Shown piece by piece: positions 3 to 6,671 of a stretch of DNA of 36,240 nt. A program made the translations under genes and the position numbers. The stretch comes from a virus: positions 1 to 36,240 of IMG/VR virus record IMGVR_UViG_3300045988_115111. One strand, 5' to 3'. The notes under the pieces were generated by a model. It saw only the letters and a list, made by a program, of their open reading frames with translations. It had not been told where the DNA came from and did no database searches. Every line of letters begins with the position of its first letter. Position 1 is the stretch's first letter.

Positions 3-353
3 TCAGCCGCTAAAGACAGGTAGGTCCACTTTCGGTTTTGCTTGTCCTCCATCACACCCGAAAACGTGGCCGTCCGCCGTTTTTTCGGCTTTGGCCTTTC
101 CGCCTCCATCACCTTCACCAGGGCCGCTATTTTCTTTTTCGTCGAGCCAGTCACGACCGTCCCGCGTCCTCTCCAAAACTAGTAGTTGTTTCCGCCTCAA
201 AGACGCTACAGCGCGCAAAAGCTCCCGCCGTTCCACGGCGTCCAGCCACGTAGACTCCGCCGCGCGCTCCAATACCTGGGCGCTACGGATCAGCGCCCAC
301 ACCATCATCCCCGGGGTATCCGGGTTAAAATCCGCCACATGCTTCACACTCAT
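3..353 (-). CDS. hypothetical protein; its 3' end overlaps the start of the junction-spanning gene in another frame
   Basis: 116-aa ORF. The C-terminal part is low-complexity and Gly-rich. The stop (TGA) at 3-5 lies inside the 55-bp terminal repeat. Confidence 0.35.
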   Translation of the reverse strand: MSVKHVADFNPDTPGMMVWALIRSAQVLERAAESTWLDAVERRELLRAVASLRRKQLLVLERTRDGRDWLDEKENSGPGEGDGGGKAKAEKTADGHVFGCDGGQAKPKVDLPVFSG

Positions 354-613
354 AGGGCTTTAATCCTCTCGACCTCTTCCGGGGCCACACGCCACCGCTG
401 ACTGCCCGCCAAACGCGTACCCTGCAAACGGCCAGCATTAAGCCAGTTACGCACCGTGGGAACGCTTACCCCTAGGGCTTCCGCTACTTCACGTGTAGAC
501 AGCATTCCGTCCGAGTAGCCCGCCTCATGGAACAATTGGCGCGCATAATTCCGCGTAACACCCAATTGGGCCGCGATAGCACCCACGCGGGGGTCGTTTC
601 TATCCGGTAACAT
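350..613 (-). CDS. excisionase-family helix-turn-helix DNA-binding protein (candidate recombination directionality factor)
   Basis: 87 aa. The segment LSTREVAEALGVSVPTVRNWLNAGRL...RWRVAPEEVERI matches the excisionase/MerR-like HTH pattern (TIGR01764-like). Its 4-nt overlap with the upstream ORF suggests operon coupling. Confidence 0.5.
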   Translation of the reverse strand: MLPDRNDPRVGAIAAQLGVTRNYARQLFHEAGYSDGMLSTREVAEALGVSVPTVRNWLNAGRLQGTRLAGSQRWRVAPEEVERIKAL

Positions 614-1584: not shown

Positions 1585-1833
1585 CTACATCAATCGCGGT
1601 AGCGACAGCACAGCCGTTAGCGCCCTAGCCTCTTCATCAGATAGCCTCACCCCAGCCGGGGCGAAAATAGGGGTAGCAAGCCCATCCAGTTCGTTACTCC
1701 GATACACCAAAACGCCGCCAATACTGGCCAGCACAAAATTACGCCCCGGCTGTTTGTAGTTAGCCTTTTCAAGCGTCTTTTTCCAGTAGTACACAGCCTC
1801 CGACAATGGGAGCTGCTTCAACTCTGCATCCAT
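1585..1833 (-). CDS. hypothetical protein (start chosen at the internal Met MDAELKQ)
   Basis: The ORF track gives 1585..1947. The ATG at 1833 is preceded by a GAGAGG RBS, giving about 82 aa. Confidence 0.4.
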   Translation of the reverse strand: MDAELKQLPLSEAVYYWKKTLEKANYKQPGRNFVLASIGGVLVYRSNELDGLATPIFAPAGVRLSDEEARALTAVLSLPRLM

Positions 1834-1971
1834 AGCAATACCTCTCAAAGTAGACAGAAGGCGGGGCGGCGTAACCAATTCACAACACCACCCCGCCACA
1901 AAAGCGCGCCCTAGGAAAGGGGTCAAAGCCCCTCCCCCGCGCGCCAACTAGGAATCACACCCCCATGACCC

Positions 1972-2004
1972 CAGCGCCCCTCGACGGAATCGAACCGCCA
2001 ACCA
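1972..2004 (-). other. tRNA 3'-end-like fragment (T-arm GGCGGTTCGATTCCGTC plus a 7-nt acceptor strand). It is not a complete tRNA.
   Basis: The reverse complement of 1976-2000 reads GGCGG-TTCGATT-CCGTC-GAGGGGC-G, a canonical T-stem/T-loop. No complementary 5' acceptor strand lies at tRNA distance upstream. Confidence 0.4.
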
Positions 2005-2344
2005 CACAGGCCAAACCCATAACTATGCACAAACACCAGGAAGGAAAGGAAACAGGGTTAAGCCCTTATGCGCGGTCACACCTAGCAAGGGGCAAAAACC
2101 CCGGCCAAAACAGCCAGGGCAAAAAGAATTTATATCCGCGCGGGTGGTTACCTACAGGCCGTGGCCTATGTTCCAGCGCCCCGCCGTTCACCCCGGGTCA
2201 TCGCAATCTACACACCATGCTCACCGGGACTACTAGGCGGGTAAATATCTTCCCCGCGCTATGCACTCATCCAGTTTTTCAAACAACACGGCCACACCAG
2301 GCGGGCTAGTGAATATGCCCAAACCCCAGCCCATCTAGTGGAGC

Positions 2345-2392
2345 CTCGTGCCCTGCCAGGGACTCGAACCCCGGCCCGTTCCAAACAGGGCC
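2345..2392 (-). other. tRNA-derived acceptor/T-arm minihelix fragment; candidate attP common core
   Basis: The reverse complement reads GCCCTG...GGCCGGGG-TTCGAGT-CCCTGGC-AGGGC-A. It has a T-loop consensus and a 7-bp T-stem with one G.U pair. No D arm or anticodon arm is present. Confidence 0.4.
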
Positions 2393-2566
2393 ATTAGTAA
2401 AACGGTTAACGTTTTCCGTTTTCGGATAACTGCTATATGTCGATTATGTATTACGCGAATCGTTTTTGTAAAACTTGGAATTTATTCACCCCAATTAAGG
2501 GGTATTTTTGGTTAGCTGCCAGGGGGACAGGTTTTCAAGAAATAGGCCAGGCGCTACGCTTTCGAT

Positions 2567-2899
2567 ATGCCCAAACGTCACTCAAATTCCGCCACAGTAG
2601 CCGCCTGGGTAGACGGGTTGATCTACCCCGACAGTCGCCGCCAGGCCTGTTTTAGAGCTGGGATCCAGCAGCCAACGCTCACGCGCCAAATCAACGAAAT
2701 AGGCAAACTAGCGCCAGAGGTAGTTATCCAGTTATGTCGTGCTTATGGGCGCTCCCCGGTCCAGGGACTCTACGAAAACGGCTATCTAGAACCGTCGGAG
2801 GCTAAACAGCCGGACCTAGACTCGATCCTGGCCAGCATCCCATTTAGCCGCCTATTAGAGGAGCTACAGGCGCGGGGTGAACGCGCGGGCCTTAGCTAA
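2567..2899 (+). CDS. HTH DNA-binding protein; short paralogue of the putative prophage repressor
   Basis: 110 aa. MPKRHS...PDSRR...LTRQINEIGKLAPEVVIQLCRAYGRSPVQGLYE aligns residue for residue with the N-terminal 90 aa of the 3274..3897 product. Confidence 0.55.
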   Translation: MPKRHSNSATVAAWVDGLIYPDSRRQACFRAGIQQPTLTRQINEIGKLAPEVVIQLCRAYGRSPVQGLYENGYLEPSEAKQPDLDSILASIPFSRLLEELQARGERAGLS

Positions 2900-3130: not shown

Positions 3131-3273
3131 AAAACGTTGATATTCAGATTATGCGTCGACCGATCGTTTAACGCAAAACTCTGTAATTACTCGCCCCCCT
3201 TACGGGGGTATATAGAATGCCTGAGCAGGGGTTTTCCCTGTTCAGCTTTTCGACCATGAGCTACACTGGCACC

Positions 3274-3897
3274 ATGCCCAAATCCCATAAGCCTGACGCG
3301 CAACAGCTCGCTAAATGGCTAGATGAACTGATTGCCCCCGACTCCAGACGAAACGCCGCAAAAGCCCTAGGAATATCTCCGAGCACCCTCACCCGGCAAA
3401 TTCATGACGTCCAAGAATTAGCCCCCGACCTAGTTATTAGACTATGCCGAATTTATGGACGCTCACCAGCTCAAGGTCTCTACGAAACAGGCCACTTATC
3501 GGTAGAAGAACTGCACACGCCGAACCCCGCAGGCGCCCTTCCAAAAATCGACACACTCTCACTACTAAAGGAGCTAGAGGCGCGGGTGGAAGGAGACATA
3601 ATCACATCCCCCACCCCCACAGGCTCTAACTCATTCCTAAACCTATTAACCGACCCAGCATCAGACTTATACAACCCGACCGTAGATCCAAGCGCCCCAT
3701 TGCGAGATATGTTTGGTGATACGTTCGATAATTCAACCTCGCAGGAAACCCAGGCTAGAGGGGATAATGTCGAACACCTGAACGATAGACGGCGCCACAC
3801 TGTCCGCTTCAATGACTACGGTAACGAATACGACGAAACACGCCACGTTGCCCTAAACGGTGACGAACTAGAACCAAACGAACTACAGGAACCCTAA
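3274..3897 (+). CDS. putative prophage repressor (HTH N-terminal domain plus acidic C-terminal domain), the ImmR-like partner of the downstream ImmA peptidase
   Basis: The longest ORF is 3217..3897. The start at 3274 (MPKSHK) is chosen by alignment with the paralogue. The HTH-like segment is NAAKALGISPSTLTRQI. The stop overlaps the ATG of the ImmA-like gene (ATGA at 3897). Confidence 0.5.
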   Translation: MPKSHKPDAQQLAKWLDELIAPDSRRNAAKALGISPSTLTRQIHDVQELAPDLVIRLCRIYGRSPAQGLYETGHLSVEELHTPNPAGALPKIDTLSLLKELEARVEGDIITSPTPTGSNSFLNLLTDPASDLYNPTVDPSAPLRDMFGDTFDNSTSQETQARGDNVEHLNDRRRHTVRFNDYGNEYDETRHVALNGDELEPNELQEP

Positions 3898-4310
3898 TGC
3901 AATTAGATAGGTTAGCCATACTAGCCGACAACATGGGCCTAACCATCACCTACCACCGGGAAGGCCCGAAAGGCTTTTATGATGATCAAGCCCACCGCGT
4001 CAGCATCCGCGCCGATGTCACCAAAAACTACCGGGAGCACGTCTGGACGCTAGCCCATGAAATAGGCCACGCGGCCAATCAACACAGGCCAACCACAGAC
4101 CCCACTATCAACGCCCGACAAGAGCTACAGGCCAATAGATATGCCGCCGCCTTACTTATCAAGGCCACAGACTACGCGATGGCCGAAACACTCACAGGCG
4201 GCCACCCCGGGGCTATAGCTAACGAGCTAGACCTCCCACGCCACGCCATAGAATTCTATCAACAGCACAGCCCACACGCGCAGAAAGCGCCCCACGCATG
4301 GCTAGCGTAG
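3897..4310 (+). CDS. ImmA/IrrE-family zinc metallopeptidase (COG2856-like)
   Basis: 137 aa with the HEIGH zinc-binding motif (LAHEIGHAANQH). It sits immediately downstream of, and coupled to, an HTH protein, which is the typical ImmR/ImmA arrangement. Confidence 0.65.
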   Translation: MQLDRLAILADNMGLTITYHREGPKGFYDDQAHRVSIRADVTKNYREHVWTLAHEIGHAANQHRPTTDPTINARQELQANRYAAALLIKATDYAMAETLTGGHPGAIANELDLPRHAIEFYQQHSPHAQKAPHAWLA

Positions 4311-5362
4311 ACAAATACACGATCAAAGCCGGGACTAGGTGGCGCGTCCGATACACCACCCCGGACGGCAAACGCCACGCCAAACGTGGTTTTAAAACCA
4401 AAGCCGCCGCACAAGCGTGGGTGGCCCAAAACTTCCAAGAAATAGAAAACGGCAAACTCCACCCCACCACCACGGCGCCCACCATCAGCGAGCTATGGGG
4501 GCAGTACAAACGCCTAGAACTCAAATACTTAGCCCCCACTAGCCAACAAAGCCTAGAGACGTGCTACCGCGTGCACGTTAAGCCCCGCTGGGGTGAATTC
4601 CCCGCCGATACAATAACCCGGCCAGACCTAACAGAGTGGGTCCACACACTAGCTGGCAACCGATCAGCTAGCCTAGTTCAGCGGGCCGTTAGTCTCGTGC
4701 ATAAGCTTTTGAACTATGCAAAAGAGGGAGGGCATATCGACGTTAACCACGCCGACCGCCTACCACTGCCACCCAAACGCCCGAAAGAGGCCACCCCGCT
4801 AACGGGGGAGCAACTCATACGGCTAGCAAATAATGCGGGCCGCTATCGCTCCCTGGTCCTTTTCATGGGCACCACGGGGGCGCGCCTAGGTGAATGCGCC
4901 GCCCTCACACCATCAGACATAGACGAAAAACGCGCGCGGGCAACCATCTCTAAAAGCATCAGTTACATAGGCGCTAAACCTGTTTTAGGGACCACGAAAA
5001 CGGGGCGGGTTAGGCGCGTAGCGATCCCTGCCCCCACCCTAGCCGCCGTCCTAGAGGCCATAGGGGATAAAGGTGGCAACGAGTTTATCTGGGAACGTCC
5101 ACAGGGCGGTCCAGTGACAAACCCGGGTAAGCGGGGCTGGTGGTCCAGGGCGATTAAAGAGTCCCGGAAGCAAGACCCCACATTTCCGCACATTAGTATG
5201 CACGATCTTAGGCACACCGCCGCGTCTCTTATGATCCAGGCGGGGTGTAGCGTTTTAGTGGTGCAGCGTCAGCTAGGTCACTCTTCCGCAAAAATGACGT
5301 TAGATGTCTATAGCCACCTTTTCGACAGTGATCTAGACGCGGTGGCTGATCTTTTGAGCTAG
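4298..5362 (+). CDS. int: tyrosine integrase (phage integrase family)
   Basis: 354 aa. The N-terminal SAM-like/AP2-like arm-binding region is KAGTRWRVRYTTPDGKRHAKRGFKTKAAAQAW. The C-terminal catalytic residues are R...HDLRHTAAS...LGHSSAKMTLDVYSHL (R, HxxR, Y). Confidence 0.92.
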   Translation: MASVDKYTIKAGTRWRVRYTTPDGKRHAKRGFKTKAAAQAWVAQNFQEIENGKLHPTTTAPTISELWGQYKRLELKYLAPTSQQSLETCYRVHVKPRWGEFPADTITRPDLTEWVHTLAGNRSASLVQRAVSLVHKLLNYAKEGGHIDVNHADRLPLPPKRPKEATPLTGEQLIRLANNAGRYRSLVLFMGTTGARLGECAALTPSDIDEKRARATISKSISYIGAKPVLGTTKTGRVRRVAIPAPTLAAVLEAIGDKGGNEFIWERPQGGPVTNPGKRGWWSRAIKESRKQDPTFPHISMHDLRHTAASLMIQAGCSVLVVQRQLGHSSAKMTLDVYSHLFDSDLDAVADLLS

Positions 5363-5373
5363 TGGCGTTTTGA

Positions 5374-5393
5374 GTGGTCCACAGGTGGTCCAC
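5374..5393. promoter_or_regulatory. tandem 9-bp palindromic motifs GTGGTCCAC-N2-GTGGTCCAC (site 1)
   Basis: Seen directly. The same pair recurs at 5579-5598. The 11-bp register places both copies on one helical face, as expected for a protein-binding site (operator or integrase arm-type site). Confidence 0.45.
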
Positions 5394-5430
5394 GTGATGG
5401 GGGTTTTTAGCGTTTATGCTGGTAGGCGGC

Positions 5431-5447
5431 TCGACTATTATAGTCGA
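5431..5447. promoter_or_regulatory. 17-bp palindrome TCGACTAT-T-ATAGTCGA
   Basis: Perfect 8-bp arms around a central T. It lies between the two GTGGTCCAC sites. Confidence 0.35.
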
Positions 5448-5476
5448 TTCCTCTCTGGGGCACTTTTTTATAGCGT

Positions 5477-5514
5477 CCCCTAACCTGTGTTTATGCAGGT
5501 TGGGGGCTTTTTTG
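5477..5514 (+). terminator. intrinsic terminator downstream of int
   Basis: The stem CCCCTAACCTG / CAGGTTGGGGG is followed by CTTTTTTG. Confidence 0.5.
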
Positions 5515-5578
5515 ACAAATGTGCCCTATGTATGTATGTAGTTTTCCGTCGGTTTGTGATGGGTGTAAGTGGTCCACA

Positions 5579-5598
5579 CGTGGTCCACGGCCCCACAC
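5579..5598. promoter_or_regulatory. tandem 9-bp palindromic motifs GTGGTCCAC-N2-GTGGTCCAC (site 2)
   Basis: Second copy of the site at 5374-5393. It lies about 125 bp upstream of the moron gene start at 5724. Confidence 0.45.
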
Positions 5599-5723
5599 AG
5601 GGCGCCGCGCTCGACCGCGTAACTGTGTGACGTAAAACACTGTAACCATAGGTTGCAATTGTGCAACCGCCGCGTTACGATCATGGTGTAAGCAAAAAAC
5701 AAAACAAGAAAGGAACCCCCACA

Positions 5724-5996
5724 ATGAACATCATCGAATACACCCCCGGCCAATTCCACCGCGTCAACTTTCGCAACCTCGTCGCCGACCAAAAGACTGC
5801 GAACTTCACCTGCGACGCCATCAGGCGCGGCCAATTCACCCACCGGGTCAGCTACCAAAACGGCACGGTCTACATCAAAGACCTAACCACAGGGGACCGC
5901 GTGGCAACCTACACCTGGGACAGCTACATCCCCAGCCGCGACGAAATCCTGGGAATCACAGACATCCTAATCGCAAAAGACCTAGGCCTCGAGTAA
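5724..5996 (+). CDS. hypothetical protein (moron/lysogenic-conversion candidate)
   Basis: The start MNIIEYTPGQ is preceded by the AAGAAAGGAACCCCC RBS. The stop TAA overlaps the ATG of the next gene (TAATG). It lies between int and the convergent late operon. Confidence 0.5.
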   Translation: MNIIEYTPGQFHRVNFRNLVADQKTANFTCDAIRRGQFTHRVSYQNGTVYIKDLTTGDRVATYTWDSYIPSRDEILGITDILIAKDLGLE

Positions 5997-6187
5997 TGCT
6001 TCAAGAGCTAACCGACGCCGCGTCCAGGGTGGCCAGTATCGCGCAACAGCAACACGCCGCCGCCCAGGAACGCGACCGGCTTATTAAAAACGCGGTAGAT
6101 AACGGAATACCCATCACCCGCATAGCAAAAGCCACAGGACTAAGCCGGAACCACATTTATCGAATCATCAACAGCGCCCAGGCATAA
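5996..6187 (+). CDS. small HTH DNA-binding protein (63 aa)
   Basis: C-terminal HTH ITRIAKATGLSRNHIYRI. It is translationally coupled to the upstream 90-aa ORF. Confidence 0.5.
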   Translation: MLQELTDAASRVASIAQQQHAAAQERDRLIKNAVDNGIPITRIAKATGLSRNHIYRIINSAQA

Positions 6188-6246
6188 AAAAAATAGGCTC
6201 CGTACCACCCCAGCCCCATACAGGGGTTAAGGGCGGCACGGAGCCT
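6185..6246 (-). terminator. intrinsic terminator ending the minus-strand late operon; convergence point of the two transcription directions
   Basis: A 9-bp stem AGGCTCCGT / ACGGAGCCT holds a structured loop. On the minus strand it is followed by a U8 tract (plus-strand AAAAAAAA at 6186-6193). Confidence 0.55.
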
Positions 6247-6257
6247 CACTCACACAT

Positions 6258-6671
6258 TTAGGGCTGTTCCCTAATCCCACCGCCCCCACTTTTAGGGGAG
6301 TGGCGCGTCTTATCATCGAGCAAACCCAGAGCCTCCAAGACAGGCGCGGGCGCTGGTGGTGGACCAGGCGGGCGGGGCCACGCCTCCAACAGCGCTACCG
6401 CGTATAGGCGGACATGGTCATCGACCACGCGGGCGGCGCGTAGCTCGTGCACTTCTGCCATTAAGCGGCTCAATTCAGCTTCCAGCGACTCTACACGCTG
6501 GCTTAACGCCTCTGCATAGCCCGAGTACTGCTGCCAGGCCACAGCGTCTTTAGACTGCTTAGCCTTTGCAAGTTCAGCGCTGAACACGTAACGAGCGCCC
6601 ACGATACTAGCCAGGGCTGCCAGGAACGCAACAATCACAGAACCCACGTCTAGGACTTCTGCTAAAAGCAT
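6258..6671 (-). CDS. lysis-cassette membrane protein (N-terminal TM helix, coiled-coil, Pro-rich C-terminus)
   Basis: 137 aa. The hydrophobic segment is VGSVIVAFLAALASIVGA. It is followed by a heptad-like region SQRVESLEAELSRLMAEVHELRAA and then PRPPGPPPAPAP. It lies immediately downstream of the holin. Confidence 0.45.
   Translation of the reverse strand: MLLAEVLDVGSVIVAFLAALASIVGARYVFSAELAKAKQSKDAVAWQQYSGYAEALSQRVESLEAELSRLMAEVHELRAARVVDDHVRLYAVALLEAWPRPPGPPPAPAPVLEALGLLDDKTRHSPKSGGGGIREQP

What the first reader, a model, noticed from the sequence alone, without database searches (positions are those of the whole stretch)
5363..5723. Paired GTGGTCCAC-N2-GTGGTCCAC sites flanking a palindrome and terminator downstream of int: alternative attP or looping operator
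- An identical architecture occurs twice, about 205 bp apart: 5374-5393 and 5579-5598. It is two copies of the near-palindromic 9-mer GTGGTCCAC in 11-bp register, each followed by CACGTG.
- Between them lie a perfect 17-bp palindrome (5431-5447) and the int terminator.
- This is the classic layout of integrase arm-type sites (P and P') around a core, placed in the usual position immediately 3' of int. Alternatively it is a pair of operators that loop DNA to control the downstream moron pair.
- It competes with the tRNA-fragment region as the attP location.
Basis: seen in the sequence. Interest (0 to 1): 0.55.

Follow-up and report, generated by a model that had tools for sequence, protein, structure and literature searches.

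The report
Phage attachment site with integrase arm sites
The repeated GTGGTCCAC pairs mark the two arms of this Corynebacterium phage's chromosomal attachment site (attP), which recombines with the end of a host arginine tRNA gene; it is a well-mapped but ordinary example of a textbook design.

Summary
The pairs are 195 bp apart.

The attP reading is supported by junction mapping. In Corynebacterium argentoratense DSM 44202 and in metagenomic lysogens, phage and host sequence switch at a 20-bp common core, TCGATTCCTCTCTGGGGCAC (5444-5463). This core is the T-loop-to-3' end of tRNA-Arg(CCT), and it lies between the two pairs.

That the pairs are integrase arm-type sites is inferred, not shown. 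The supporting evidence:
- The integrase has a lambda-like N-terminal arm-binding domain.
- Conservation among five attP variants stops immediately after pair 2.
- A 43%-identical integrase lineage has a different doublet (ATGTGGGCA x2) in the same two-arm layout, and the doublet tracks the N-domain.

The looping-operator alternative fails, because in lysogens the two pairs sit at opposite prophage ends. The tRNA-like fragment at 2350-2403 is not the junction.

This is the known L5/Giles/CrimD/P2 type of attP, so it is a new member of a known kind. In passing, the same doublet was found beside integrases and tRNA genes in several other phyla.

The parts
4298..5362 (+). int: tyrosine integrase of 354 aa, with an N-terminal arm-binding domain (residues about 3-51), a flexible linker (52-60), a core-binding domain and a catalytic domain.
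   Evidence: Pfam gives Phage_integrase at E = 7e-21 and Arm-DNA-bind_4 at residues 15-53 with 27.6 bits, above the 22.3 cut-off. The AF2 model has pLDDT 90.8 and shows three strands plus a helix at the N-terminus. Foldseek aligns the full length with lambda Int 1Z1B/1Z1G/5J0N. The protein is 95% identical to CARG_02430 of C. argentoratense DSM 44202.
5374..5393 (+). P-arm doublet: GTGGTCCAC-AG-GTGGTCCAC, proposed arm-type Int sites P1 (5374-5382) and P2 (5385-5393). It ends 50 bp left of the core.
   Evidence: locate it. It is retained next to int at the int-side prophage junction in the lysogens L096, L097, L099 and L102. It is conserved in five attP variants while the immediately flanking bases vary.
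5431..5447 (.). 17-bp palindrome TCGACTAT-T-ATAGTCGA. Its last 4 bp are the first 4 bp of the common core. Its role is unknown; it may contribute the phage-side core-type Int site.
   Evidence: locate it. It is present in all close relatives. It is absent in more distant integrases that target the same tRNA core (L104, L107, L108).
5444..5463 (+). Common core (crossover region) TCGATTCCTCTCTGGGGCAC. It is identical to tRNA-Arg(CCT) from the second base of the T-loop through the discriminator base plus the first C of CCA.
   Evidence: attL is at L003(-) and attR at L096, L097, L099 and L102. Phage and host sequence diverge exactly at both edges of this 20-mer. ARAGORN calls tRNA-Arg(cct) at L003 12565-12638.
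5477..5513 (+). Intrinsic terminator in the P' arm: a 13-bp stem followed by CTTTTTT. It ends int transcription in the phage form and sits directly behind the rebuilt tRNA-Arg gene in the lysogen.
   Evidence: One search finds the terminator by scan. One search gives -22 kcal/mol and z = -4.84. It is present after the tRNA in L003.
5569..5588 (+). P'-arm doublet: GTGGTCCAC-AC-GTGGTCCAC, proposed arm-type Int sites P'1 (5569-5577) and P'2 (5580-5588). It starts 105 bp right of the core and marks the right end of the conserved attP block.
   Evidence: locate it. Variants in relatives are GTGGTCCAT and GTGGTCCGC. Sequence conservation collapses right after 5588, and in L009 and DSM 44202 the downstream DNA is unrelated. 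The 195-bp spacing to pair 1 is identical in L006, L009 and L100.
5653..5681 (+). Weak candidate promoter TTGCAA-17-TACGAT for the downstream genes 5724-5996 (90 aa) and 5996-6187 (63 aa, HTH). It lies outside the attP block.
   Evidence: I read this from the sequence; it falls below the scan threshold. Relatives L006 and L100 have TTGACA-17-TACATT at about the same distance downstream of pair 2 (read; the region lies outside the alignment). Pfam hits for the 63-aa protein are HTH_23 and HTH_7.
353..613 (-). Candidate excisionase (recombination directionality factor): an 87-aa HTH_17/MerR-type protein.
   Evidence: Pfam gives HTH_17 at E = 5.5e-13. The assignment as an RDF is an inference from the family only.

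Best explanation
Window 5374-5588 (215 bp) is the attP site of a temperate Corynebacterium argentoratense siphophage.

**Shown**
- Recombination with the host takes place inside a 20-bp common core, 5444-5463.
- This core equals the T-loop-to-3' end of the host tRNA-Arg(CCT) gene.
- After integration, the phage copy of the core rebuilds the tRNA at one junction (attL). There it is followed by the phage terminator and pair 2.
- int, pair 1 and the displaced tRNA fragment lie at the other junction (attR).

**Inferred**
- The four GTGGTCCAC 9-mers are the arm-type sites. There are two on the P arm and two on the P' arm, each pair in 11-bp register and so on one face of the helix.
- They would be bound by the small N-terminal domain of the four Int protomers of the recombining tetramer.
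- The C-terminal domains of those protomers would bind the core sites of attP and attB.
- The arms would be folded back onto the core, probably helped by a host bending protein of the mIHF type.
- Direction would be set by the phage HTH_17 protein acting as excisionase.

The pairs are not part of the downstream genes' control region. The attP module ends exactly at pair 2.
For: **Junction mapping**
- attR-type junctions were read in CP006365.1 (L096), L097, L099 and L102. The order is int stop, pair 1, palindrome, core, then host DNA (CCATTGAAAAAG..., with a glutaredoxin gene beyond).
- The attL-type junction is in L003: a full tRNA-Arg(cct), then phage sequence equal to window 5464 onward, including the terminator and pair 2.
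- Intact attP occurs in presumed free-phage contigs L006 and L009, and between two prophage copies in L100.

**Statistics**
- There are 4 exact copies against 0.29 expected, with none elsewhere in 36 kb.

**Integrase**
- The Arm-DNA-bind_4 hit is above its cut-off.
- The AF2 model shows a three-stranded sheet plus helix, then a floppy linker.
- The full length aligns with lambda Int.

**Conservation**
- In five attP variants the 9-mers and their 195-bp spacing are kept.
- SNPs and an indel fall just outside the 9-mers, and similarity collapses right after pair 2.

**Parallel family**
- Integrase P0016 (43% identical) has AAATGTGGGCA x2 in 11-bp register right after its stop codon.
- In IMG/VR, 11 contigs carry two such doublets 210-223 bp apart, flanking different cores; several of them are recognisable tRNA 3' fragments.
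- Integrases sharing that doublet are 56-94% identical in the first 60 residues but mostly about 40% (range 36-72%) in the rest. The window Int differs in the hairpin (TTPDGKRHA against RKPDGTQTD).

**The same GTGGTCCAC doublet in unrelated elements**
- It lies between an integrase gene and a tRNA gene in L021, L047 and L074.
- It lies just inside both ends of a tRNA-Arg-bounded 5.9-kb element in L012.
- The integrase is the only protein family these loci share.

**Precedent**
- Pairs of about 11-bp repeats flank the core in CrimD, Giles and L5 (PMC3203893) and in other actinophages (PMC10865867).
- Lambda integration uses four Int bridges (PMC4880445).
Against: - No binding or mutational data exist; the Int-to-9-mer assignment is inference.
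- The 9-mer is a perfect odd palindrome (GTGG-T-CCAC). That is unusual for arm-type sites, which normally bind a monomeric domain in a defined orientation.
- Only four sites are visible. Lambda and L5 use partly different subsets of more sites for integration and excision.
- The close relatives are 95-97% identical in int, so conservation inside the block carries limited weight on its own.
- Unrelated elements with the same doublet have integrase N-domains of different Pfam types (Arm-DNA-bind_3, or no hit). A simple one-domain-one-motif rule therefore does not explain the recurrence.
- Integrases at 42-44% identity that use the same tRNA-Arg core (L104, L107, L108) show no obvious doublet between int and the core.
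Confidence: 0.8

Rival explanations
1. The region is attP, but the GTGGTCCAC doublets are bound by an accessory protein rather than by Int. The candidate would be the excisionase (the HTH_17 protein at 353-613) or a host factor. The true arm-type sites would then be something else or absent.
For: - The 9-mer is palindromic, which suits a dimeric HTH protein better than a monomeric Int N-domain.
- Tandem direct repeats in about 11-bp register are also typical of excisionase sites such as lambda X1/X1.5/X2 (PMC4880445).
- An HTH_17 protein is encoded in the phage.
- Weak HTH_17-like matches occur in some unrelated doublet-bearing loci, for example L069 at E = 8e-5.
- The same doublet occurs with integrases whose N-domains belong to different Pfam families.
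Against: - Excisionase sites are normally on one arm only; here the doublets are on both arms at comparable distances from the core.
- No other repeated motif that could serve as arm sites is present in 5363-5600 apart from one imperfect 20-nt repeat.
- The doublet motif tracks the Int N-domain in the ATGTGGGCA family.
- The integrase is the only family clearly shared by loci with the doublet.
Confidence: 0.1
2. The two pairs are operators bound by a phage regulator. The regulator would loop the 195 bp between them to control int termination or read-through, or the downstream 90-aa/63-aa gene pair.
For: - Pair 2 lies about 65 bp upstream of a weak candidate promoter for the downstream genes.
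- The downstream 63-aa protein has an HTH.
- Palindromic sites are typical of operators.
Against: - In every lysogen examined the two pairs are separated by the whole prophage. Pair 1 is at the int end and pair 2 at the tRNA end. Looping is therefore impossible in the state where prophage-expressed genes would need control.
- Pair 2 is retained unchanged in L009 and DSM 44202, where the downstream DNA and genes are unrelated.
- No copy of the motif occurs in the immunity region or anywhere else in the genome.
Confidence: 0.03
3. The attP used by this phage is the tRNA-like fragment at 2350-2403 (- strand), and the GTGGTCCAC region is something else. This is the competing location named by the reader.
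For: Rfam's permissive scan finds a tRNA-like anticodon-arm plus T-arm fragment there. It is a mascRNA-menRNA hit of 22.5 bits at E = 2.6.
Against: - Window 1800-2700 aligns as one uninterrupted block (94% identity over 904 columns in L096, L097 and L102; 85% in L099), i.e. inside four integrated prophages, so it is not split by integration.
- The real junctions map to 5444-5463.
- ARAGORN finds no tRNA in the window.
Confidence: 0.02

Closest known systems
attP of Cluster K1 mycobacteriophages such as CrimD (PMC3203893)
   Same: Two pairs of about 11-bp repeats flank a short common core derived from a t(m)RNA T-arm/3' end. A stem-loop terminator lies between the core and the right-hand pair. 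The integrase is a tyrosine integrase with an N-terminal arm-binding domain. Arm motif variants track substitutions in the N-domain.
   Different: In CrimD the right pair is inverted relative to the left pair, attP lies 5' of int, and the target is the tmRNA gene. Here all four copies are direct (the 9-mer is itself palindromic), attP lies 3' of int, and the target is tRNA-Arg(CCT). The arm motif sequence is unrelated.
attP of mycobacteriophages L5 and Giles (as summarised in PMC3203893; pairs of arm-type sites in actinophages also in PMC10865867)
   Same: Pairs of arm-type sites in direct orientation lie on both sides of a tRNA-derived core in an actinobacterial host. From my own knowledge of the L5 literature, a host bending factor of the mIHF type and a small Xis set direction.
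   Different: [quoted passage not shown] Binding and requirement have been shown experimentally for L5 and not here. The window Int is only about 30% identical to mycobacteriophage integrases.
attP of P2 and 186 (PMC3448106)
   Same: [quoted passage not shown] N-domains are conserved while the core-binding part varies, as in the ATGTGGGCA family found here. The P2 consensus tgTGGaCa resembles ATGTGGGCA and, less closely, GTGGaCCAc.
   Different: The host is proteobacterial and the integrases are unrelated at sequence level. P2-type phages mostly integrate outside tRNA genes. The resemblance between motifs may be chance.
Bacteriophage lambda attP (PMC4880445)
   Same: A heterobivalent Int bridges arm-type and core-type sites. 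Four Int bridges operate in integration. The Int model here aligns over its full length with lambda Int structures.
   Different: Lambda has five arm sites used in two overlapping subsets. It has defined IHF, Xis and Fis sites and a non-tRNA attB. None of the accessory sites could be identified here.

Membership tests
Lambda-type attP of a heterobivalent tyrosine integrase | attP and attB share a short common core, and lysogens carry hybrid attL and attR junctions that switch between phage and host sequence at that core. | tested here: met
   The 20-bp core is at 5444-5463. attL is in L003. attR is in L096, L097, L099 and L102. Intact attP is in the window, L006, L009 and L100.
Lambda-type attP of a heterobivalent tyrosine integrase | The integrase carries an N-terminal arm-binding domain in addition to core-binding and catalytic domains. 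| tested here: met
   Pfam Arm-DNA-bind_4 scores 27.6 bits against a 22.3 cut-off. The AF2 model shows three strands plus a helix at 3-51 and a linker at 52-60. Foldseek gives a full-length alignment to 1Z1B, 1Z1G and 5J0N.
Lambda-type attP of a heterobivalent tyrosine integrase | Repeated motifs, different from the core sequence, lie on both arms within about 150 bp of the core. | tested here: met
   Two 9-mers end 50 bp left of the core and two start 105 bp right of it. The motif occurs nowhere else in the genome.
Lambda-type attP of a heterobivalent tyrosine integrase | The Int N-domain binds the arm motifs, and the motifs are required for recombination. | not testable with these tools
   Only indirect support is available. 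It consists of conservation and the module boundary, co-variation of doublet and N-domain in a sister family, and recurrence next to integrases elsewhere.
Lambda-type attP of a heterobivalent tyrosine integrase | There are accessory bending-protein and excisionase sites between the arms and the core. | tested here: inconclusive
   A candidate excisionase gene exists (HTH_17). No convincing site motif was found, only T-tracts and an imperfect 20-nt direct repeat at 5412-5431 and 5489-5508.
tRNA-gene integration at the T-loop sublocation (classes summarised in bioRxiv 10.1101/2020.11.02.365908) | The identity block between attP and the tRNA gene starts in the T-loop and runs to the 3' end, so the gene is rebuilt by the phage copy. 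| tested here: met
   Identity starts at the second T-loop base and ends one base after the discriminator. ARAGORN still calls the rebuilt tRNA-Arg(cct).
Paired operators acting by DNA looping | Both sites stay in cis at a fixed short distance in the regulated state and are tied to the regulated promoter or genes. | tested here: not met
   The pairs are at opposite prophage ends in lysogens. Pair 2 persists when the downstream genes are replaced. There are no copies in the immunity region.
Restriction or methylation target, or a generally frequent genome word | The motif is spread over the genome at or above chance frequency. | tested here: not met
   There are 4 copies, all within 215 bp, against 0.29 expected. 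In 9.9 kb of host DNA beside the prophage there are none.

The most novel reading that the evidence does not exclude
The palindromic doublet GTGGTCCAC-N2-GTGGTCCAC may be a recurrent arm-site 'word' rather than a private motif of this phage. Tyrosine integrases of very different lineages and N-domain types appear to use it, in Actinomycetota, Acidobacteriota, Chlamydiota, Verrucomicrobiota, Bacteroidota and Pseudomonadota. If so, either the small three-stranded arm-binding domain is strongly biased towards a few GTGG-type sequences (compare P2 tgTGGaCa and ATGTGGGCA), or an unrecognised common partner reads it. Because the 9-mer is palindromic, it could also be read in either orientation. That might let a minimal four-site attP serve both integration and excision.
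Probability: 0.3. Interest if true: 0.55.

Novelty: new member of a known kind. Interest (0 to 1): 0.3.

Why it matters
**Direct use**
- It gives a base-precise attP (215 bp), common core and attB (tRNA-Arg CCT) for a phage group of Corynebacterium argentoratense, a species from the human upper airway.
- That is what is needed to build an integrating vector, or to delimit these prophages correctly in genomes. IMG/VR cut them at the int stop codon and lost the attR junction.
- It settles which of two candidate regions in this genome is the attachment site.

**Possible wider value**
- The attP has only four arm sites, one per Int protomer, and could be a simple model for how arm bridges are arranged.
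- The side observation that the same doublet sits at the arms of unrelated integrative elements could help predict att sites from sequence, if it holds up.

Tried and rejected
- **Megablast against phages.** A search of 4298-6200 against 50,697 phage records found no match, so no annotated close relative exists there.
- **Species-representative genomes.** None was Corynebacterium, so the host was not found this way. The host came instead from the protein search and the exact-protein look-up.
- **IMG/VR copies of the DSM 44202 prophage and of one relative.** These are cut 3 bp after the int stop codon (L007, L008), so they could not give the int-side junction.
- **RNA searches.** Rfam found no real RNA family in the region (the NsiR1 hit at 5441-5514, E = 7.3, is noise), and ARAGORN found no tRNA in the window.
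- **CACGTG as part of the site.** I rejected this because it is not conserved in relatives.
- **A fifth site.** The GTGGTCCAG copy inside int (5140-5148) is not conserved in L002 or L004.
- **Promoter scan.** The scan found no promoter at its threshold in 5300-6300. The TTGCAA-17-TACGAT site is only a weak candidate.
- **Literature searches for the bare motifs.** Searches for TGTGGACA and GTGGTCCAC returned only primer sequences.
- **Sequence search of PDB.** It matched only the catalytic domain. The N-domain needed the structure model.
- **A shared small DNA-binding protein.** I looked for one among unrelated loci with the doublet. Nothing beyond the integrase passed E = 1e-4.

Full report
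**1. The observation**

The intergenic region runs from 5363 to 5723. It lies between the stop codon of a tyrosine integrase gene (4298-5362) and the next gene (ATG at 5724).

Exact GTGGTCCAC occurs four times in the 36,240-bp window. All copies are on the + strand, at 5374-5382, 5385-5393, 5569-5577 and 5580-5588. Dinucleotide-preserving shuffles give a mean of 0.29 copies and never 4. Each pair is in 11-bp register. The two 22-nt blocks are 95% identical and 195 bp apart.

- The spacing is 195 bp, not about 205.
- CACGTG follows only pair 1. In pair 2 it spans the spacer, and it is not conserved in relatives.

The 17-bp palindrome (5431-5447) and the terminator are real. The terminator is at 5477-5506 plus a T-run, at -22 kcal/mol and z = -4.8.

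**2. Where the phage recombines**

The window is a 36,240-bp metagenome scaffold. It has no close relative among deposited phages.

The integrase is 95% identical to CARG_02430 of Corynebacterium argentoratense DSM 44202. I read both ends of the prophage in that genome.

- **Int side (L096, CP006365.1).** The sequence runs int stop, pair 1, palindrome, TCGATTCCTCTCTGGGGCAC. It then continues into host DNA (CCATTGAAAAAG...), with a host terminator and a glutaredoxin gene.
- **Same junction elsewhere.** It recurs in an SRA-run (Logan) assembly contig and two metagenome contigs (L097, L099, L102). In L099 the flanks of pair 1 are identical to those of the window.
- **Other end (L003, from the same genome through IMG/VR).** A complete tRNA-Arg(CCT) ends in ...GGTTCGATTCCTCTCTGGGGCA. 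It is followed by phage sequence equal to window 5464 onward, including the terminator and pair 2.

Phage and host sequence therefore switch at both edges of one 20-mer, window 5444-5463. It runs from the second base of the tRNA T-loop to one base past the discriminator. This is the T-loop sublocation described for integrases that target tRNA genes (bioRxiv 10.1101/2020.11.02.365908).

Intact attP is seen in the window, in two other presumed free-phage contigs (L006, L009), and between two prophage copies 36.4 kb apart on one contig (L100 and L102). That last case is either a tandem double lysogen or an assembly of mixed integrated and free forms.

The core lies between the two GTGGTCCAC pairs. 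Pair 1 ends 50 bp to its left and pair 2 starts 105 bp to its right.

**3. The competing site**

It gives a weak tRNA-like Rfam hit. Window 1800-2700 aligns as one uninterrupted block (94% identity over 904 columns in L096, L097 and L102; 85% in L099) inside these prophages. It is therefore not an attachment junction in these lysogens.

**4. What the pairs are**

The evidence that they are Int arm-type sites is indirect but comes from several directions.

(a) The integrase has the required extra domain.
- Pfam Arm-DNA-bind_4 scores above its cut-off.
- The AlphaFold model (pLDDT 90.8) shows three strands and a helix at residues 3-51, then a disordered linker, then the core-binding and catalytic domains.
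- The model aligns over its full length with lambda Int structures.

(b) Conservation among five attP variants (window, L006, L009, L100, DSM 44202 rebuilt from attR plus attL).
- The 9-mers are kept. Site variants are ATGGTCCAC, GTGGTCCAT and GTGGTCCGC.
- The 195-bp spacing is kept.
- Substitutions and a 2-bp indel fall immediately outside the 9-mers.
- Similarity collapses right after 5588. In L009 and DSM 44202 the downstream DNA is unrelated.
- Pair 2 therefore belongs to the int/attP module, not to the downstream genes.

(c) A sister lineage has the same architecture with another motif.
- Integrase P0016 (43% identical) is followed at once by AAATGTGGGCA-AAATGTGGGCA.
- In IMG/VR this doublet occurs in more than 120 loci.
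- Eleven contigs carry two copies in the same orientation, 210-223 bp apart, flanking different cores; several of them are recognisable tRNA 3' fragments.
- Integrases that share this doublet are 56-94% identical over the first 60 residues but mostly about 40% (range 36-72%) over the rest.
- They share the hairpin RYRVRYRKPDGTQTDKRGF, where the window Int has RWRVRYTTPDGKRHAKRGF.
- So the arm motif follows the N-domain, and the core follows the rest of the protein.

(d) The same GTGGTCCAC doublet sits at att-site arms of unrelated elements (section 7).

(e) The motif is absent from the rest of the phage, including the immunity region.

**5. Rivals**

*Looping operator.* This is excluded for the lysogen because the pairs are then at opposite ends of the prophage. 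It also does not explain why pair 2 persists when the downstream genes are replaced.

*Binding by the excisionase or another accessory protein.* This cannot be excluded. The 9-mer is a perfect odd palindrome. The phage encodes an HTH_17 protein at 353-613. Occurrence on both arms and the N-domain co-variation argue against it.

**6. How it most likely works**

Four Int protomers each anchor their N-domain on one 9-mer. The two sites of a pair are one helical turn apart, so they lie side by side on one face of the DNA.

The arms fold back so that the C-terminal domains reach the core sites of attP and the tRNA gene. This matches the four Int bridges described for lambda integration (PMC4880445). 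Strand exchange inside 5444-5463 follows.

After integration, the phage copy of the core completes the tRNA, although the encoded CCA is lost and only its first C remains. The P'-arm terminator then sits directly behind the tRNA gene. These steps are inferred from the family. The position of the junctions is shown.

The 17-bp palindrome overlaps the left edge of the core. It may supply the phage-side core-type site. It is absent in more distant integrases that use the same core (L104, L107, L108). Its role is open.

**7. Comparison with known systems**

The layout is the one already described for actinobacteriophages.
- CrimD has two pairs of 11-bp repeats flanking a T-arm-derived core, with a terminator between the core and the right pair.
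- Giles and L5 have pairs in direct orientation (PMC3203893).
- Pairs of putative arm-type sites flank the core in other mycobacteriophages (PMC10865867).

The present site is a new member of this kind. It has its own motif, its own target (tRNA-Arg CCT) and a new host.

**8. Side finding**

My rough estimate for chance is 17-40.

- **Integrase association.** In 24 of the 80 loci examined, a tyrosine recombinase ORF lies within 1 kb of the doublet. These loci come from about 11 lineages.
- **Acidobacteriota (L012).** A 5.9-kb element is bounded by a 52-nt direct repeat of the tRNA-Arg(CCG) 3' half. It has one doublet just inside each end. Its integrase has an Arm-DNA-bind_3 domain.
- **Parachlamydiales, Verrucomicrobia and Nocardiopsis (L021, L074, L047).** The doublet lies between int and a tRNA gene.
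- **Shared proteins.** The integrase is the only protein family shared by these loci at BLASTP E = 1e-4.

This supports an integrase-linked role for the motif. It also raises the question of why the same 9-mer recurs with different N-domain types. I could not run a composition-matched control scan, so the size of the excess is uncertain.

**9. Verdict**

The attP location is close to certain. The arm-site role of the pairs is likely (about 0.8 for the combined statement). The finding is solid and useful for annotation and vector building, but it is not surprising to a specialist, so I score interest at 0.3.

Noticed in passing
L012 1340-7311; L017, L031, L067; L021 4852-6116; L074 2413-3718; L047 1769-3800; Sphingomonas loci L014, L022, L026, L027, L032, L037, L054, L059: The exact doublet GTGGTCCAC-NN-GTGGTCCAC recurs in unrelated phyla at places that look like att-site arms. 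Examples are just inside both ends of a tRNA-Arg-bounded 5.9-kb element in Acidobacteriota, and between int and a tRNA gene in Parachlamydiales, Verrucomicrobia and Nocardiopsis. A tyrosine recombinase ORF lies within 1 kb in 24 of 80 loci. The integrase N-domains are of different Pfam types.
   Followed up: partly
L105 3582-3603; L111-L190, for example L124 2539-2778 and L111, L136, L148: A sister integrase family uses AAATGTGGGCA doublets in the same two-arm layout, 210-223 bp apart, around different cores; several are recognisable tRNA 3' fragments. There are more than 120 IMG/VR loci, many at contig ends. The motif is close to the P2 arm consensus tgTGGaCa (PMC3448106).
   Followed up: partly
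window 2350-2403 (- strand): A tRNA-like fragment (anticodon-arm-like stem with loop TTTGGAA, then T-arm GGGGTTCGAGTCCCTG) lies in an apparently non-coding stretch of the early/immunity region. It is conserved and uninterrupted in all lysogens, so it is not the att site. Its origin is unknown; it could be a relic of an older attachment site or of a phage tRNA.
   Followed up: partly
L100 and L102 (contig ODIJ01000034.1, int copies 36.4 kb apart): One metagenome contig carries two copies of the phage in tandem, with an intact attP between them and an attR junction at the end. This is either a tandem double lysogen or an assembly that merges integrated and free forms.
   Followed up: no
window 5589 onward compared with L009 4305 onward and L003(-) 12439 downward: There is a sharp mosaic breakpoint immediately after pair 2. 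Some relatives carry a different small gene (MKELAELLDSPQGWLVALGIFLKG...) instead of the 90-aa and 63-aa HTH pair. The slot between attP and the lysis genes is therefore an exchangeable cargo position.
   Followed up: partly
window 5460-5469 compared with L096 11165-11175: The host tRNA-Arg gene encodes its CCA end (GGGGCACCA). The phage copy supplies only GGGGCAC followed by TTTTTT, so in lysogens the rebuilt gene no longer encodes CCA and would depend on the CCA-adding enzyme.
   Followed up: no
window 5412-5431 and 5489-5508: An imperfect 20-nt direct repeat (85% identity, GTTTATGC(T/A)GGT...GGCT) flanks the core about 12 bp (left copy, 5431 to 5444) and 25 bp (right copy, 5463 to 5489) from it. 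The right copy forms part of the terminator hairpin. It may be chance: the shared 8-mer occurs 3 times in the window against 1.45 expected.
   Followed up: partly
window 3217-4310: An HTH_3-like 226-aa protein and a Peptidase_M78 (ImmA/IrrE-like) 137-aa protein lie directly upstream of int and overlap its start. This is an ImmR/ImmA-type regulator and anti-repressor protease pair in one operon with the integrase. The same Peptidase_M78-int adjacency is seen with distant relatives (L104, L106, L107).
   Followed up: no
L001 12670-12842; L005 350-670: Two unrelated viral contigs carry long arrays of GTGGTCC(A) repeats. L001 has at least 7 tandem AAGTGGTCCAC units followed by inverted GTGGTCCA/TGGACCAC units. 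L005 has scattered direct and inverted copies upstream of a gene whose product looks RuvC-like by eye (not tested with any tool). These look like iterons or operators rather than att arms.
   Followed up: no
L107 3577-3720: Downstream of a 43%-identical integrase that uses the same tRNA-Arg core, a different 15-nt doublet (TTCAGCCGGTACTCG x2, 17-bp register) lies about 55 bp beyond the core. It may be the arm of another or a decayed element.
   Followed up: no
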